DNA of 22,681 nt from Candidatus Nanohaloarchaea archaeon (GTDB lineage Archaea > Nanohalarchaeota > Nanosalinia > Nanosalinales > Nanosalinaceae). Made by a program: the position numbers. The stretch lies in assembly GCA_046539225.1 (NCBI GenBank), contig JBKHHG010000009.1:1-22681 (forward strand), in the 5' to 3' direction. Shown piece after piece: positions 1-9,000 of this stretch (the stretch's first letter is position 1; the number at the start of each line of letters is the position of its first letter).

Positions 1-3000
1 TAAGGTGCTTCTTGGATACACATCCGGCATTATATGGGCTTTAGTTCCTTCGACTTCTACAGCATCGGACGGGACTTCAACCTCTTCCCGGGTCTTGATT
101 AAGTAGTAGTCTCCCGGCTCGAGAGTTAATATGTCTTCCGAACCTTCTTGCAGGACTTTCTCGTTGTCTGGAGTATCTCGGGTATCTTGATGGAGAAAAC
201 CTTCTGAGGTTAACTTGAAGGCATCTCCCAGCCTTACTTCCAGGCCTACTCCTTCTGGATTCTCAAGCTCTCTTTCGGCAAGGCCGTGGATCATTCCGTG
301 TTCTTCACGCATTTCCAGAACTTTCTTGGCGGTAAGGATCATAAAGATACTTTAGAAGAGAATTTTCATAACTTTAATCAGATTTCAAGGTAATCGCCGG
401 AGTAACCTTCTTCAACTTCCTTAATTCTGTGGAAAACTACCTGATTAAACCTTGCGTTCTCCTTTATTTCCACGCCTTCAGGGTTCTCCACTTTTAATAG
501 ACAGGCGCCTCTGACCGTTGTGCCCGCATCCCAGACTGCGTTTTCGATGCTGCAGCCCATTCTCAGCAGCGAGCTTCTTGGAAATGCGTAGGCCATCAGG
601 TTCTCGGGTATATCGACTTTTTCATTCATTTTCACTTTGTAAGCTCCGGGCTCAAGCTTCCACCAGCCGTAATCATTTCCAGGTTTTCTCTCAGGATTTA
701 ACTTTTCTGAGGCCGGTATTTTTCTTTCGTTGTTCGAAAAGTCCAGCTTTCCTTTTCCACTGTATTCATAAATTTCCCCGGCAGTCAAATCGAATCCCTG
801 TGGAGTCAACTGAGTCTCCAAATCGATGTAGTCCTGGATCAGGCCTTCACTCTCTATCTTTTCCTTGAGTTCGTGCTTGTTCAGAGGCATAAATATTGAT
901 GGTGTTACATTGATAAAAAATTAGACCTGTTAACCTTTGTGTGAATCTTTAATGGAAAGAACTTACACCGATAAGATAACTGAAGAAGATGACGGCGAAA
1001 AATTTACTGTGGCAGGCTGGGCCCACGAGATCAGGGATCTGGGAGGAATAACATTTGTAGTTCTCAGGGACAGAAAAGGCCAGATCCAGCTAACCTTCAA
1101 GGAAGACAGTAATGAAGAACTCTTCGAAAAGGCCCAGTACGTAGGGAAAGAAGACGTGATCAAGGCCTCAGGAATAGTTCAGGCCTCGGATCAGGCGCCG
1201 GGCGACAGAGAGATGCATCCGGATTCCCTGGAGATAGTGGGCGAGGCAGAATCACCTCTCCCGATGGACGTATCCAAGAACATTGACTCCGATCTCTCTA
1301 CCCGGTTAGACAACAGGTTCATGGATCTGAGGAGGCCTGAGAAGCACGCAGTATTCTCTCTGAGAGGCAAGATGCTTGAATCCATGGAGGAATGGTTCGC
1401 GGACAACAACTATATCAAAATCAATACACCGACTATCGCAAAGATGGGGGCGGAAGGAGGGGCAGAACTTTTCCCTGTAGTCTACTACGGAGATGAGGCC
1501 TTTCTAAGCCAGAGCCCGCAGCTCTACAAGCAAATGCTGATGGCAGCAGGCTTCGACAAAGTATATGAGACAGGTAAGGCCTTCAGGGCCGAGGAGTTCG
1601 CTACTTCGCGCCATGTTTCAGAGATCACGATGTTTGACGTCGAGTTAGCGTTTATAGAGGATCAGCACGACGTAATGGATGTGCTTGAAGACTCGCTGAC
1701 CTATACTCTTGAACAGCTGCAGAGCAAGGCCGCCGAAGAGCTGAACGAGTTAGGCGTCGATCTCGAGGTTCCAGAGGAGGACTTCCCGAGGATCAAGTTT
1801 GAGAAAGCCAGGGAAATCCTCGAGGAGGAATACGATCATGTTCCGGAAGACCCTGAGGATCTCGATACGAAAGGGGAGAAACTTCTCGGCGAGTACTTCG
1901 AGGAGAAAGGCCATCCCGCCTTCTTTGTCATCGGGTATCCCGGCGAAAAGTTTTACTACATGGAGGCCCGGGAAGGCGACGAATACCAGTCCCGCCGCTT
2001 TGACTTGATCTACAAAGGCCTCGAGTTGGCGTCAGGAGGGCAGAGAGAGCACGACCTTGAACGACTTGAGGCAGGGATGAAGAGGGACGGAGTCGACCCT
2101 GAAGACGTATCCTTCTACCTTGAATCATTCAAGTTCGGGATGCCGCCGCACGGAGGCTACGGATTAGGCCTCGACAGACTGGTCAGAAAGATCGCGGGCC
2201 TTGAAAACGTGAAGGAAGCTATACTGTTCCCGAGGGATCCAAACCGGCTGACCCCATAATGAGGCCTGGTTTGAAGGCCTGCAGGATTTCCGGGTTTCCA
2301 AGTGTTTTTTATTCTAACACTTTACTTATTTTGTTAGAATGAGTGATCAGGAAGCAGTGACGGAGGCGCAGGATTTCGGTGCGGATACGGAGATTAACAA
2401 GGTTACGTGTAAAGGTTTCAAGTCTTTCCAGAGGAAGACTGCTGTGCCTTTCTATGAAGGCCTGACCGCGATTGTTGGGGAGAACGGCTCGGGGAAGTCG
2501 AATATTCTGGATGCGTTGAGCTTTGTGTTTGGTAGGAGGTCTTCTCAGTTGAGAGCGGAGAAGATGACTCAGCTGATCTTTAACGGCGGTGAGGACGGTG
2601 AGCCCTCTGATTTTGCAAAGGTCACGGTCTATCTTGATAACTCTTCCGGTATCTTTGACGAGTTTCTTGATGAGGATGAGGAGGCTGAGGAGGTTACGGT
2701 CGGGCGGAAGATCACCCAGGCCGGGAGCTCGATGTACAAGTTTCAGGGCACTAACTGCAAGAAAAAGAAGATTGCGGATATCTCGAGGAAGGCCAATATT
2801 GACCCTAAAGGCTACCATTTTGTCCGTCAGGGCAAAGTGACGGAGATAGTTGAGCAGAGCGATACCGAGCGGAGAGAAGTGGTGGATGATCTTTCGGGCA
2901 TCTCGGAGTTCGATGAGAAGAAGGAGGAAGCTGTAGAGGATCTGGAGGAGGTGGAGGAGAAGCTGAGGGAGCAGGAGATCAAGCTTGATCAGAAGAAGGC

Positions 3001-6000: not shown

Positions 6001-9000
6001 TTCAAAGGAGAAGGATGGCAGGACAGCCACGCTCGACGTTACAGACCATTTCCTGGACTACTTCGAGATAGAGTCGCTCGAAGAGTTCAAAGAGGGCAAG
6101 GATACCGAGACCGAGATGCTGTAGACTCGAGTCTTTTTAGTCTTCCCGGGTTTTAACTTACTGTAATGGAGATCACCAGTCTTGACCTTTCGATACTTGA
6201 GGAAGAGTTCTCGAAGCTTGAGGACGGGCATGTTCAGAAGGTTTACCAGAGAGGCCAGGAGCTGACAATAGAGGTATATGTGCCGGGAGATGAGAAGAAG
6301 CGGGTGGTGATTGGTACGGACAAGGCCTTTATCTCGAAGTACAAACGTGACAATCCTATGAAGCCTCCAGGTTTCTGCATGGAGCTTAGAAAGCATCTGG
6401 GCAAGGTTGACAGTATCACGCAGAAAGGATTTGACCGGGTGCTTGTAATTGAAAGCGGCGACACCAAGCTGATCTGCGAGCTCTTCGGCAAAGGCAACTA
6501 TATACTGACAAAGGAAGGCAAGATTATCGGAGCCTTGAGAGAAGAGGAATGGGTTGACCGGGAGATCAGGGTAGGCCTTGAGTACGAGTTCCCTGAACCG
6601 GCGGACGACCCACGCGGAAAGAACTATATAGAGATGCTTGAAGGCGGTGAAGTAGTGCGTCGAATCGCTTCAGACCTGTCGCTCGGCGGCACGTACGCCG
6701 AGGAGATCTGCACGAGACTCGGCATCGAAAAAGACAGGCCTGTAGAAGATCTTTCAATGGAAGAAAGGCAGAGACTTGAAGAAGAGATCCAGAACTTTCT
6801 GAACCCGGAGCCGAGGCCTGTGCTCTACACGGAAAACGGTTTCCCCGAGAGAGCAGCGCCTTTCCCACTCCAAAACTATGAGAAATATGAAAAAGAAGAG
6901 TTTGAAAGTTTTTCCGAGGCCCTGGACGAGTACTACTACAGGAAGAAGCAGAAGAAAGAGGAGAGAAAGAAAAAGGAGAAGTACAGGGAGGAACTGGAAG
7001 GCCTGAAGCAGAAGAAACAGCAGCAGGAGAGAAAGATTCAAGGCCTAAAGAAATCTTCCAGGCAGAACAGGAGAAAGGCTGAACTGATCTACGAGAACTA
7101 TCAGGAGCTTGAAAAAGTTAAAAAAGCTCTGGAGACCGGTGTGGAACAGTATGGATGGAATAAAACCCGGGAGACGTTGGAAGAGGCTGATATGGAGGAG
7201 GCCTCGAAGATTAAGACGTTGAATGAGCAGAACGGGTTTTTCAGTTATCAGCTTGAGGAGGATTCTGTGAAAATCTTTCTTTTCCAGGATCTGGAGGCCA
7301 CGGCTTCAGGCTACTACGACAAAGCTAAAGATTCGGAGCAGAAGATGGAGAACGCGGAAAAGGCCCTGGAAGCCACCAAAAAAGAGATCGAGGATCTCGG
7401 CGAGGAAGACGTACAGGTTGAAGAGGTTATGGAGGACAAGTCGGAGAAGCGGGGAAAGAAATGGTTTGAGAAGTACCGGTGGTTTTACTCCAGCGATGGC
7501 TTCCTTGTTGTGGTAGGTAGGGATGCTCAGACCAATGAGATGCTTGTAAAGAAGCATATGGAAGACACGGATCTCTATCTTCACGCAGACTTTGACGGCG
7601 CCCCCAGTGTCGTGGTGAAGGATGGGCAGGATGCGCCGGAGGAGACCCTGAAGCAGGCGGCGAAAGCGGCTGTAACATTTACAAAGGCCTGGAAGGCGGG
7701 TATAGGAGCGGCGGATGTCTACTACGTCGAGCCAGAACAGGTGACGAAAGACCCTGAATCAGGAGAGTATCTTTCAAAAGGCGCTTTCGTTATCAGAGGA
7801 GAGCGAGAATACTTCAGGAATATCAAGATCGATGCCTGTATAGGGCCTTACAAAATAGAGGATTTCTACGTGCCGATGTGCGGGCCTGAAAAAGCAGTAG
7901 AGGAACAGTGCGAGGAGAAGATCAAGTTGAGGCCTGGAAGGGATAAGAAGAGCGAAGTCGCAAAGCAGGTTAACTCCAGGCTGAAAGATTACGATCTTGA
8001 CCTGGACTACACTGTACGTTCGCTTCCACCCGGAAAGTCCGAGACCGTCTAAACACTTTCTTCAGGGTCAAGATTGGAGAGATCGACGTCAGATATCAGG
8101 TTGAATCCTGAAGTTACAACCCAGATAAGCATAGTCCACGCAAAAATCATGGTTACAGGCGTGCCAAGGCATCTAAAACCTGATAGAGGTACATTGACAG
8201 AGGTCCAGAAACCTATCTGCTGAGTTATGAAAGAAGTAACAAATCCTGCGAGGACTGAAAGAGTCAGTACAGCGCCAAGCTTATCCCGTTCTCTGTATGA
8301 AATATTTGCGATTATGCCCTGGCCTTTCTTCCTGAACTCAAAGTACTCTATAACAAATAAAAGGCCTACAAGAGAGCCTATAAACATTAAATACGATGTC
8401 AGGCTTCCAGCATCGACTACAAGTAAGAGGAACGGCGCCGCCATCATTAGAAGGCCTGTATGGACGAAGTAGCGGTAGTAATCAGATCCAAACTCTTTTT
8501 TAAGCATTGTTTCGGCCTCGAAAACTCTTTTTAAAATCCTGAAGATTGCGTAGCCCGGCATTATCAACAGGCCGTAAACGAAAATCGTTTCAAACGCAAA
8601 GTTAATGGCCTGAACCGATAAAAACGTTTCTGGCAGAGTAAAAGCTCCCTGCCAGACTCCTGTGACCGCTGCACCATAAATCTCGGATATAAACCCGAGT
8701 ACTGCACCTGAAAACAGTACAAACATCGCGCCCTGCAGAGGAGATATTTTCTTGGCGAGCAGCGGTTCCTGGTCCGCGATGAAGTAGTTCAACGAGTCGA
8801 AGAACAGGAATAGGCCTATACATGTGAAAACATAGATGTGCTTCAGCTGGCCGACATCGGTGAAAAGGTTCAGTAACGCCAGCACCACGAGGAAGAGGCC
8901 TGATACTCCGTAAAGTTTCTGGAACTTTGAGTCCATACCATTCAAAGACTCACGCCGGGTTAAAATAATACCGCCTCATTCCACCAGGAACTTTACAGGT

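What a model noticed while it worked through the whole genome (the two positions that open the first line are those of the whole stretch)
2339..6124. Natural mini-SMC: condensin with arms half the canonical length, shared by Nanohalarchaeota, Aenigmatarchaeota and an Un [...]
The only hinge-bearing Smc (g00327, 841 aa, in an smc-scpA-scpB operon) has both coiled-coil arms about 175 aa shorter than canonical 1160-1200-aa Smc, i.e. about 165 aa, two super-helical periods below the B. subtilis class. This short class is fixed across Nanohalarchaeota and Aenigmatarchaeota, giving a lineage and a natural test case to a length mode so far only suspected.
Evidence so far: Motif-to-motif distances N/C 248/249 versus about 433/417 in canonical Smc; 108 homologs mean 249.5, SD 1.8. 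One hinge match in 59 of 60 positive phylum genomes; 47 of 61 frames 833-968 aa, 3 near 1390 (intein Pfams in call 15), 11 shorter. Phylum of an Aenigmatarchaeota genome: 73 of 81 frames 795-878 aa, 4 near 1350-1390, 3 short, 1 of 1020. Naiadarchaeales protein 833 aa; Woese-, Nano- and Micrarchaeota examples 1122-1166 aa. Paper searches for this in DPANN found nothing relevant.
(Added by a program. Inside this text positions count along the whole contig: contig position 1 is position 1 of the stretch shown here. "Call 12" and the like, gene names such as g00115 and contig names such as C1 are that model's own, and its searches are not shown. The text may have been shortened before it was handed on; [...] marks where a part breaks off. 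The agent that wrote the report below was given it as the finding of a first reader that could run no searches.)

Follow-up and report, generated by a model that had tools for sequence, protein, structure and literature searches.

The report
Half-armed archaeal condensin passed to bacteria
This tiny salt-loving archaeon folds its chromosome with an intact SMC motor whose arms are half the usual length, a size that did not work when engineered into Bacillus; the same three-gene machine is the norm in three archaeal lineages and seems to have been handed to a group of bacteria, so nature offers ready test cases for how much arm the motor needs.

Summary
Confirmed. 2339-4864 is an intact 841-aa archaeal-type Smc (heads, joint, hinge) before scpA and scpB. 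Each arm is about 175 aa shorter than canonical (about 168-174 aa on the 2017 Bürmann scale); the hinge-side half is what is missing. The class is fixed in Nanohalarchaeota, Aenigmatarchaeota and both Undinarchaeota orders; Nanoarchaeota and Micrarchaeota with equally small genomes keep long arms. The scan found this class before on other DNA (e.g. e1-6948766). Added here: (1) the 2017 '163-aa' mode rests on three table rows, one of which matches the Nanosalinarum Smc by coordinates; (2) engineered B. subtilis Smc of 136-175 aa gave no growth; (3) the whole short operon is the only condensin in 98 of 130 Bipolaricaulota bacteria, groups with Nanohalarchaeota in Smc, ScpA and ScpB trees, shares two indels with them, and these bacteria almost all lack ParB (2 of 130). 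Best reading: a working, ParB-independent mini-condensin that crossed from DPANN archaea into bacteria. Function is untested; one of three AU tests did not reject a bacterial grouping. New variant of a known kind.

The parts
2339..4864 (+). smc, 841 aa, short-arm archaeal-type Smc
   Evidence: AF2 model mean pLDDT 76.5; Foldseek best hits are condensin, cohesin and Pyrococcus Smc
2393..2902 (+). N-terminal head half (aa 19-188): Walker A at aa 47-54, R-loop, Q-loop at aa 163-165
   Evidence: motif positions; alignment
2648..2689 (+). head insertion (aa about 104-117) shared by Nanohalarchaeota and Bipolaricaulota Smc; with a one-residue R-loop deletion near aa 68 it marks the transferred clade
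2903..3373 (+). N-terminal arm strand (aa 189-345), helix with one break at aa 302-310
3392..3847 (+). Smc hinge (aa about 352-503) with the GG-x-x-x-GG dimer motif
   Evidence: PF06470 E 3e-29
3848..4432 (+). C-terminal arm strand (aa 504-698): basic linker 504-520, helix 521-552, break 553-560, helix 561-616, joint, neck helix 656-718
4187..4303 (+). Smc joint (aa 617-655), retained
   Evidence: AF2 secondary structure; aligns with Pyrococcus 5XEI; constant offset to canonical Smc
4433..4864 (+). C-terminal head half (aa 699-841): signature at 753, Walker B/D-loop at 780, H-loop at 810-814
   Evidence: invariant columns
4934..5620 (+). scpA kleisin, 228 aa
   Evidence: PF02616 39.8 bits over cut-off 24.6 at the C end; NF000994 match at aa 29-86, under its cut-off
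5621..6124 (+). scpB kite, 167 aa, TTG start directly after the scpA stop
   Evidence: PF04079 E 1e-38, TIGR00281 above cut-off
6166..8052 (+). rqcH (ribosome rescue), usual downstream neighbour in Nanohalarchaeota; not part of the complex and not beside the bacterial operons
   Evidence: NF041120 above cut-off; synteny
937..2259 (+). class II (Asp/Asn-type) tRNA synthetase, usual upstream neighbour in Nanohalarchaeota; not part of the complex

Best explanation
The three genes encode the cell's only condensin. Two Smc chains dimerise at the hinge, ScpA bridges the heads and binds two ScpB (family knowledge). An ancestral deletion removed about 165-185 aa from the hinge-side part of both arm strands but left head, neck, joint and about 90-150 aa of head-side arm in register (shown by profile offsets), giving an arm of about 170 aa, roughly 24 nm against 47-49 nm (inferred by scaling). 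The deletion is close to two functional periods, so the head-to-hinge phase is kept and the ATP-driven rod-to-ring cycle can still capture a DNA segment between the arms and pass it to the kleisin chamber (inferred from the B. subtilis model); the lumen is about half the size, so steps should be shorter. It loads without ParB/parS (ParB absence shown, loading mode inferred), which may be why it works where same-length B. subtilis constructs failed on rich medium. The short form is old in DPANN (Nanohalarchaeota, Aenigmatarchaeota, Undinarchaeota). The whole smc-scpA-scpB operon moved from a Nanohalarchaeota relative into Bipolaricaulota bacteria, where it is the only condensin; a sister order has none, so it probably refilled a gap left by loss of the bacterial Smc-ScpAB and ParB.
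For: All ATPase and hinge motifs are kept: signature, Walker B/D-loop and H-loop 121 of 121 nanohaloarchaeal homologs, Walker A 112 of 121; 68-69 of 69 bacterial copies. Arm length is tightly held: 183.3 SD 1.5, Undinarchaeota 182-184, 95 Aenigmatarchaeota-like 180-189, bacteria 179-192.5. Among the 150 best 50%-identity clusters, 147 were measurable: 27 at 170-192, 4 at 241-277, 116 at 313-366, nothing in 193-240. One hinge per genome in 117 of 118 Aenigmatarchaeota and 109 of 109 Bipolaricaulota positives. Viable engineered window 253-267 minus 91 gives 162-176, which holds the 168-174 estimate. Transfer: trees on head, joint and hinge only put Bipolaricaulota with Nanohalarchaeota (IQ-TREE LG+C20 quick tree, SH-aLRT 100; with Aenigmatarchaeota 99; FastTree 99/96); the same trees recover the known euryarchaeal Smc in Melainabacteria; AU rejects vertical bacterial descent once Nanohalarchaeota+Aenigmatarchaeota (p 4.5e-7) or DPANN (p 1e-67) are held together; ScpA and ScpB trees agree (99); two shared indels absent from all 15 other bacterial rows; archaeal TIGR02169 outscores bacterial TIGR02168. 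Not mis-binning: smc and bacterial rpoB share one contig in G075 and G076; operon GC follows the flanks. ParB over cut-off in 2 of 130; parS-like hits at control level in 5 genomes.
Against: No experiment shows complex formation, DNA loading or extrusion. B. subtilis constructs of 136-174 aa: 34 of 39 gave zero colony area, best 0.089; 175 also zero; the zinc-hook series likewise, so length and phase alone are not enough in that host. The deficit is 1.9 periods of 91 aa but 1.8 of 99, and natural modes are unevenly spaced (75-103 aa apart). The plain constraint 'Bipolaricaulota + other bacteria' was not rejected (p-AU 0.122; 0.071), although that tree pulls all bacteria in among Nanohalarchaeota. 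The careful bootstrap tree did not finish; several Bipolaricaulota rows have odd composition. ScpA/ScpB trees held no ordinary bacterial ScpA/ScpB. Undinarchaeota do not join the other short Smc in the free trees; one origin is only not rejected (p 0.47-0.58). The register of the N-strand deletion is loose (aa 280-340), and hhalign placed the C-strand gap elsewhere.
Confidence: 0.8

Rival explanations
1. The short complex still binds and compacts or tethers DNA, but is not a processive loop extruder: about 24-nm arms are too small to capture a bent DNA segment, so it acts as a clamp or a passively driven ring.
For: Same-length B. subtilis constructs did not support growth; intermediate mini-Smc hydrolysed ATP but did not relocate from parS. 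DNA stiffness (persistence length about 50 nm, recalled) makes a half-size lumen costly.
Against: Joint, hinge, all ATPase motifs, ScpA and ScpB are kept and arm length is held within a few residues over four phyla, as expected if phase still matters; it serves bacteria with genomes up to 2.9 Mb.
Confidence: 0.2
2. Arm shortening is a by-product of genome and cell reduction in small symbionts.
For: Nanohalarchaeota and Aenigmatarchaeota genomes are 0.4-1.9 Mb.
Against: Nanoarchaeota (0.6-2.1 Mb; 193 of 201 with a hinge, listed frames mostly 1150-1220) and Micrarchaeota (68 of 70 without the unpublished genome, mostly 1100-1220) keep long arms; their short frames that I checked are cut or frameshifted long Smc. 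Bipolaricaulota of 1.0-2.9 Mb carry the short form. No gradient of intermediate lengths inside the class.
Confidence: 0.07
3. The Bipolaricaulota Smc is a vertically inherited bacterial Smc that shortened on its own, its closeness to nanohaloarchaea being a tree artefact or the result of a transfer in the other direction.
For: Unconstrained Bipolaricaulota+Bacteria not rejected; composition warnings.
Against: About 40% identity over the whole length, arms included; two shared indels; ScpA and ScpB agree; nesting inside Aenigmatarchaeota diversity sets the direction; constrained AU tests reject it.
Confidence: 0.06
4. Assembly or annotation artefact, or a decaying gene.
For: The genome is a 38-contig MAG.
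Against: Both strands are shortened in step; 120 near homologs of 827-876 aa or intein-bearing forms, some from complete genomes; conserved operon.
Confidence: 0.01

Closest known systems
Canonical prokaryotic Smc-ScpAB (B. subtilis Smc; Pyrococcus Smc, PDB 5XEI/5XNS/4I99; Thermococcus kodakarensis Smc-ScpAB, PMC11840125; TIGR02169/TIGR02168)
   Same: Head motifs, joint, hinge, kleisin and kite partners; archaeal type; T. kodakarensis also works without a ParB loader (passage).
   Different: Arms about 170 instead of about 341-344 aa; hinge-side half of the arm missing; three genes in one operon.
Minor 163-aa mode of natural Smc arm lengths (Bürmann et al. 2017, PMC5344682, text and Table S4)
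   Same: Same length class; row GI 339756830 (HeadN end 725, HeadC 1232-1372, mean 173) fits the 1377-aa intein-bearing Smc of Nanosalinarum sp. J07AB56 position by position.
   Different: There it was 'possibly' a mode, three unlabelled rows at the bottom of 3,337; no lineage, operon, history or test was given in the parts I read.
Engineered B. subtilis mini-Smc (PMC5344682, Table S5)
   Same: Same design: head-side arm kept, hinge with a short stretch grafted on (against legend).
   Different: Engineered forms worked only at 253-267 and 321-344 aa; 136-175 gave no growth, whereas the natural form is fixed in four phyla.
smc-scpA-scpB transfer from euryarchaeotes to Cyanobacteria, and smc to Aquificales (bioRxiv 10.1101/129494; PMC11823831)
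   Same: Archaea-to-bacteria move of the whole condensin gene set, then vertical inheritance.
   Different: Donor is DPANN, recipient is Bipolaricaulota, and the cargo is the half-armed form; neither paper's main text names Bipolaricaulota or Acetothermia.
Hinge-less environmental SMC of marine Actinobacteria (PMC12153180)
   Same: Natural reduced Smc variant found in uncultured lineages.
   Different: Those lack the hinge; this one keeps it and shortens the arms.

Membership tests
Smc-ScpAB condensin | Split ABC head with Walker A, Q-loop, signature, Walker B/D-loop, H-loop | tested here: met
Smc-ScpAB condensin | Central Smc hinge with glycine dimer motif | tested here: met
   PF06470 102 bits
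Smc-ScpAB condensin | Head-proximal joint in the C strand | tested here: met
Smc-ScpAB condensin | Kleisin ScpA and kite ScpB encoded | tested here: met
Smc-ScpAB condensin | NCBIfam equivalog cut-off | tested here: inconclusive
   TIGR02168 594 over 567; TIGR02169 705.5 under 729.4, the match being split by the missing arm
Smc-ScpAB condensin, major length class | Arm of about 341 aa | tested here: not met
   182.5 against 354-360 on one ruler; it belongs to the minor class instead
Smc-ScpAB condensin | Tripartite ring, DNA entrapment, loop extrusion, chromosome phenotype | not testable with these tools
   needs biochemistry or Hi-C
Bacterial ParB-loaded Smc-ScpAB | ParB/parS loader in the genome | tested here: not met
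   0 of 1 own genome, 82% complete; 2 of 130 Bipolaricaulota over cut-off; parS at control level
Rad50/SbcC | Zinc hook instead of hinge; equivalog score | tested here: not met
   hinge present; Rad50 models 51-79 bits against cut-offs 700-1087
ASRP / ClsN / Sph | NF045487 cut-off; no Smc hinge | tested here: not met
   104.8 against 300; hinge present
SMC5/6-related archaeal SMC (PMC8665677) | Tree affinity to Smc5/6 | not tested
   no Smc5/6 rows in my trees; the paper reports none in DPANN and the protein groups with canonical DPANN Smc
MksBEF / Wadjet | MukB-like ATPase with MksE/F and a JetD/MksG nuclease beside it | tested here: not met
   neighbours are ScpA, ScpB, RqcH and a tRNA synthetase; PADLOC was not scanned

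The most novel reading that the evidence does not exclude
The smallest hinge-bearing condensin class known to me is a real ParB-independent DNA loop extruder with about 24-nm arms, in a length regime that is dead in B. subtilis; it arose once early in DPANN evolution and was later exported whole to Bipolaricaulota that had lost their own condensin and ParB. It would give (a) a natural ruler for whether step size scales with arm length and (b) a further archaea-to-bacteria Smc transfer, the first from DPANN that my searches show, tying the age of most Bipolaricaulota to the nanohaloarchaeal stem.
Probability: 0.55. Interest if true: 0.85.

Novelty: new variant of a known kind. Interest (0 to 1): 0.72.

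Why it matters
How SMC arms set the step and mechanism of loop extrusion is open. The 2017 engineering screen found no function below 253 aa, yet four phyla run on about 170 aa as their only condensin, so minimal arm length is host- or loader-dependent rather than a hard mechanical floor. The bacterial copies give non-halophilic, bacterially expressed versions that can be purified or tried in a B. subtilis smc scpAB deletion with and without ParB. The transfer is also a relative-dating link like the smc transfer used to date methanogens and Cyanobacteria, and the shared short arm is a rare structural mark joining Nanohalarchaeota with Aenigmatarchaeota rather than with Halobacteria (the one Halorutilales Smc measured has long arms).

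Tried and rejected
Literature: ten searches gave no listing that describes short-armed DPANN Smc or an Smc transfer to Bipolaricaulota/Acetothermia; one search found 0 papers, one unrelated. The library lacks most subscription papers. PMC11823831 Fig. 1 is a GTDB-wide Smc tree that may show the placement, but figures and its supplement could not be read. A van Hooff paper named in an earlier scan note was not seen. Genome reduction as cause: rejected. A second short class in Thermoproteota that might match the third Table S4 row: 52 of 121 genomes had a hinge; four short frames checked were cut, split or long-armed; the rows GI 735013947 and GI 501265882 remain unidentified. The search for related loci with the diverse short alignment picked universal motifs and returned ordinary bacterial Smc, used only as outgroup. 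The careful IQ-TREE run did not finish in two calls; one script timed out (86) and was completed. Sigma-70 promoter and terminator scan: background level, not apt for archaea. ESM Atlas: own cluster of 857 members, 83% Archaea; no added information. No complex prediction was run: the pairs are textbook ones.
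Full report
Observation. The window has a 841-aa ORF at 2339-4864 followed by ORFs of 228 and 167 aa. Pfam and NCBIfam call them Smc with hinge, ScpA and ScpB. All ATPase motifs are in place. tblastn finds no other Smc or hinge in the 607-kb genome, which is 82% complete. The AlphaFold model (25-sequence alignment, pLDDT 76.5, pTM 0.45) gives head, a helix 189-301, a break, helix 311-345, hinge, helices 521-552 and 561-616, a joint at 617-655 and a neck helix to 718; its best structural matches are condensin, cohesin and Pyrococcus Smc.

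Arm length. I used one ruler for all proteins (HMMs for the end of head-N, the hinge and the start of head-C). The window protein gives 172/193, mean 182.5; the 121 proteins plus the query give 183.3, SD 1.5. Canonical Firmicutes give 354.5-359.5, Nanoarchaeota 346-352 in 12 of 13 loci and 322.5 in one. Two calibrations put this on the published scale. Against B. subtilis = 344 with Firmicutes at about 358 (B. subtilis itself was not measured), the arm is about 168. Against Table S4 of Bürmann et al. 2017 it is about 174, since the Nanosalinarum J07AB56 Smc measures 181.5 on my ruler and 173 there. Sliding profiles against 80 canonical proteins keep one offset from the head to about aa 280 on the N strand and from about aa 550 to the head on the C strand, then jump by about 165-185 near the hinge: the hinge-side part of the arm was lost, head-side arm and joint kept. 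The z-scores for aa 550-625 are modest (3.1-3.9), and hhalign put the C-strand gap nearer the joint, so the exact borders are open.

What the 2017 paper holds. I read main-text parts 1-4 of 11, passages, Document S1 part 1, Table S4 parts 1, 22, 23 of 41 and Table S5 parts 1 and 5 plus searched rows. The text lists major modes at 238, 341, 515 and 'possibly' minor ones at 163 and 423. In the sheet, which is in falling order in the parts read, only the last three rows lie under 190: 173, 160, 159. The first has HeadN ending at 725 and HeadC 1232-1372; the 1377-aa intein-bearing Smc in L098 (Nanosalinarum sp. J07AB56) has the matching motifs at exactly these places. So the class sat in that table unlabelled. 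In the shortening screen function returned only at 253-267 aa; constructs of 136-174 aa gave zero area in 34 of 39 cases and at most 0.089, 175 zero, and six zinc-hook constructs of 155-175 at most 0.004. Viable constructs scored about 0.3-2.4, but the 344 and 343 constructs scored under 0.09, so single rows can fail; a run of 40 is robust. The screen tested fast growth on rich medium only.

Spread in archaea. Nanohalarchaeota: 47 strong frames of 833-968 aa, 3 near 1390, none of canonical length in 70 genomes; smc-scpA-scpB stays together in most loci long enough to show it. Aenigmatarchaeota (phylum of L300): 118 of 121 genomes, 105 of 119 frames 795-924 aa. Undinarchaeota: 24 proteins at 48-100% identity to a Naiadarchaeales Smc, some named Naiadarchaeales or Undinarchaeales by their sources, most unnamed; 23 measurable, arms 182-184, the longer Undinarchaeales proteins having C-terminal tails. 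Nanoarchaeota (193 of 201; 150 frames listed) and Micrarchaeota (68 of 70 leaving out one unpublished genome) are long-armed; seven short Nanoarchaeota frames and one Micrarchaeota frame checked were cut or split long Smc (three other short Micrarchaeota frames were not checked). Among the best 150 clusters at 50% identity, 147 measurable arms fall at 170-192 (27), 241-277 (4) and 313-366 (116).

The bacterial branch. A profile scan returned 32 loci labelled as bacteria with about 40% identity over the whole protein (L116-L148 less L118). They carry the short smc with scpA, and scpB where the contig reaches, between a membrane pyrophosphatase gene and cysteine desulfurase/NifU genes in the loci inspected. 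Many titles say 'Thermotogae', others Bipolaricaulota; the one 'Thermotogae' locus I mapped (L148 = G166) lies in the phylum of the Bipolaricaulota genome G070. In that phylum 109 of 151 genomes have exactly one hinge, 103 frames are 823-1044 aa, five are shorter, and the one of 1250 is a short Smc with upstream open frame; 69 measured loci give 179-192.5. At 85% completeness or more: hinge in 98 of 130, ParB over cut-off in 2 of 130. Most negatives belong to one order (35 genomes around G124) where SMC_N finds RecF- and SbcC-sized frames and only one contig-end fragment of a bacterial-type Smc (376 weaker matches not listed); 0 of 20 hinge-negative genomes had ScpB over cut-off. In G075 and G076 smc and bacterial rpoB lie on the same contig.

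History. Trees used only head, joint and hinge columns. FastTree on 117 rows and IQ-TREE LG+C20 on 60 of them (quick tree; the careful run did not finish) join Bipolaricaulota with Nanohalarchaeota and one unnamed protein (99 and 100), inside an Aenigmatarchaeota+Nanohalarchaeota clade (96 and 99), and recover Melainabacteria with euryarchaeotes, the known transfer. On 35 rows with LG+F+G4, AU rejects Bipolaricaulota+Bacteria when Nanohalarchaeota+Aenigmatarchaeota (p 4.5e-7) or DPANN (p 1e-67) are kept whole, but not when nothing else is held (p 0.071; 0.122), a tree that roots all bacteria among nanohaloarchaea. One origin of all short arms is not rejected (p 0.47, 0.58) and not shown. A one-residue R-loop deletion is shared by all 11 nanohaloarchaeal and 13 bacterial rows and a few Aenigmatarchaeota-side rows; a head insertion by the same 24 rows and close unnamed ones; two halophile-type long Smc have another insertion at that site. 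ScpA and ScpB trees join the two groups at 99, without ordinary bacterial partners in the set.

How it most likely works. Shown: intact motor, hinge, joint, partners, tight length, sole condensin, ParB absence. From family knowledge (PMC5526789 passages; PMC11840125 passages): ATP-driven head engagement opens the arm rod, a DNA segment is captured between the arms and pushed to the kleisin chamber; archaeal Smc-ScpAB shapes chromosomes without ParB. Inferred: a deletion of nearly two 91-aa periods preserves phase (253-267 minus 91 = 162-176), the arm is about 24 nm, steps are shorter, and independence from ParB or slow growth lets it suffice where B. subtilis constructs failed. I put 0.8 on a working condensin with this history, 0.2 on a non-extruding clamp.

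Novelty. A new variant of Smc-ScpAB. The length class was glimpsed in 2017 and this scan met it before in other genomes, whose short listings do not name Bipolaricaulota; one speaks of 'a few other lineages'. Ten paper searches (listed under Tried and rejected) showed no description of the lineage pattern or the transfer; other papers were seen as passages only (PMC8665677 with a supplement search, PMC11344861, PMC12787533, PMC12153180, bioRxiv 10.1101/129494, PMC11823831), and an unread figure or supplement could hold the placement. Interest 0.72.

Noticed in passing
L098:2725-6858; P0044, P0104 and other 1321-1396-aa homologs: An intein with a LAGLIDADG domain sits inside Walker A of some short Smc (3 of the strong frames in Nanohalarchaeota; five Aenigmatarchaeota frames of like size were not opened); the window's allele is empty.
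   Followed up: partly
Order of G124 (35 Bipolaricaulota genomes): A whole bacterial order seems to lack Smc, ScpB and chromosomal ParB: a candidate condensin-free lineage. One contig-end bacterial-type smc fragment in G084 (L324) may be contamination.
   Followed up: partly
L021:3496-6495, L033:3998-6859, L034:3992-6976: Smc-like proteins of 953-999 aa with no hinge match and a central CPxC motif (zinc-hook type); earlier scan notes describe such proteins. L024 (928 aa) and Spirochaetales L306/L308 (about 940-aa frames) also lack a hinge match, L024 without CxxC.
   Followed up: partly
L014-L023, L026: Promethearchaeota and related Asgard Smc of 1482-1493 aa, a long-arm class at the other extreme.
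   Followed up: no
L148 (G166) and P0123: This Bipolaricaulota Smc branches apart from the other bacterial copies, next to Nanohalarchaeota; either a deep lineage or a second transfer (joint monophyly not rejected, p 0.071).
   Followed up: partly
L100; L116, L119-L148: Record titles look wrong: L100 'Colwellia polaris' has the nanohaloarchaeal gene order; many 'Thermotogae', one 'Atribacteria' and one 'Neomarinimicrobiota' title carry the Bipolaricaulota-type locus.
   Followed up: partly
window 3848-3898 (aa 504-520): Lysine-rich linker right after the hinge (8 K/R in 17 aa) in an otherwise acidic protein, conserved in the alignment; a possible DNA contact.
   Followed up: no
L117:2870-4150 and like places in L126, L127, L131, L140, L146: A conserved gene with a signal-peptide-like start and no NCBIfam match (E 1e-20 cut) lies just upstream of the bacterial smc.
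   Followed up: no
window 13559-16659 (-): Run of secreted or membrane-anchored proteins with similar N-terminal hydrophobic stretches, one with a PKD domain, two others scanned without Pfam match: surface or adhesion cluster.
   Followed up: no
window 17479-19740, 20807-21610, 9044-9976, 378-890: Ordinary genes: Hel308-type helicase, DeoC/class I aldolase, PHO4 transporter, dCTP deaminase/dUTPase-like.
   Followed up: no
P0146, P0155, P0161, P0162, L210, L236; P0165, P0186, P0193, P0252: Other DPANN-side Smc sit at 313-327 and 241-277 on my ruler, so DPANN holds several arm-length classes.
   Followed up: partly
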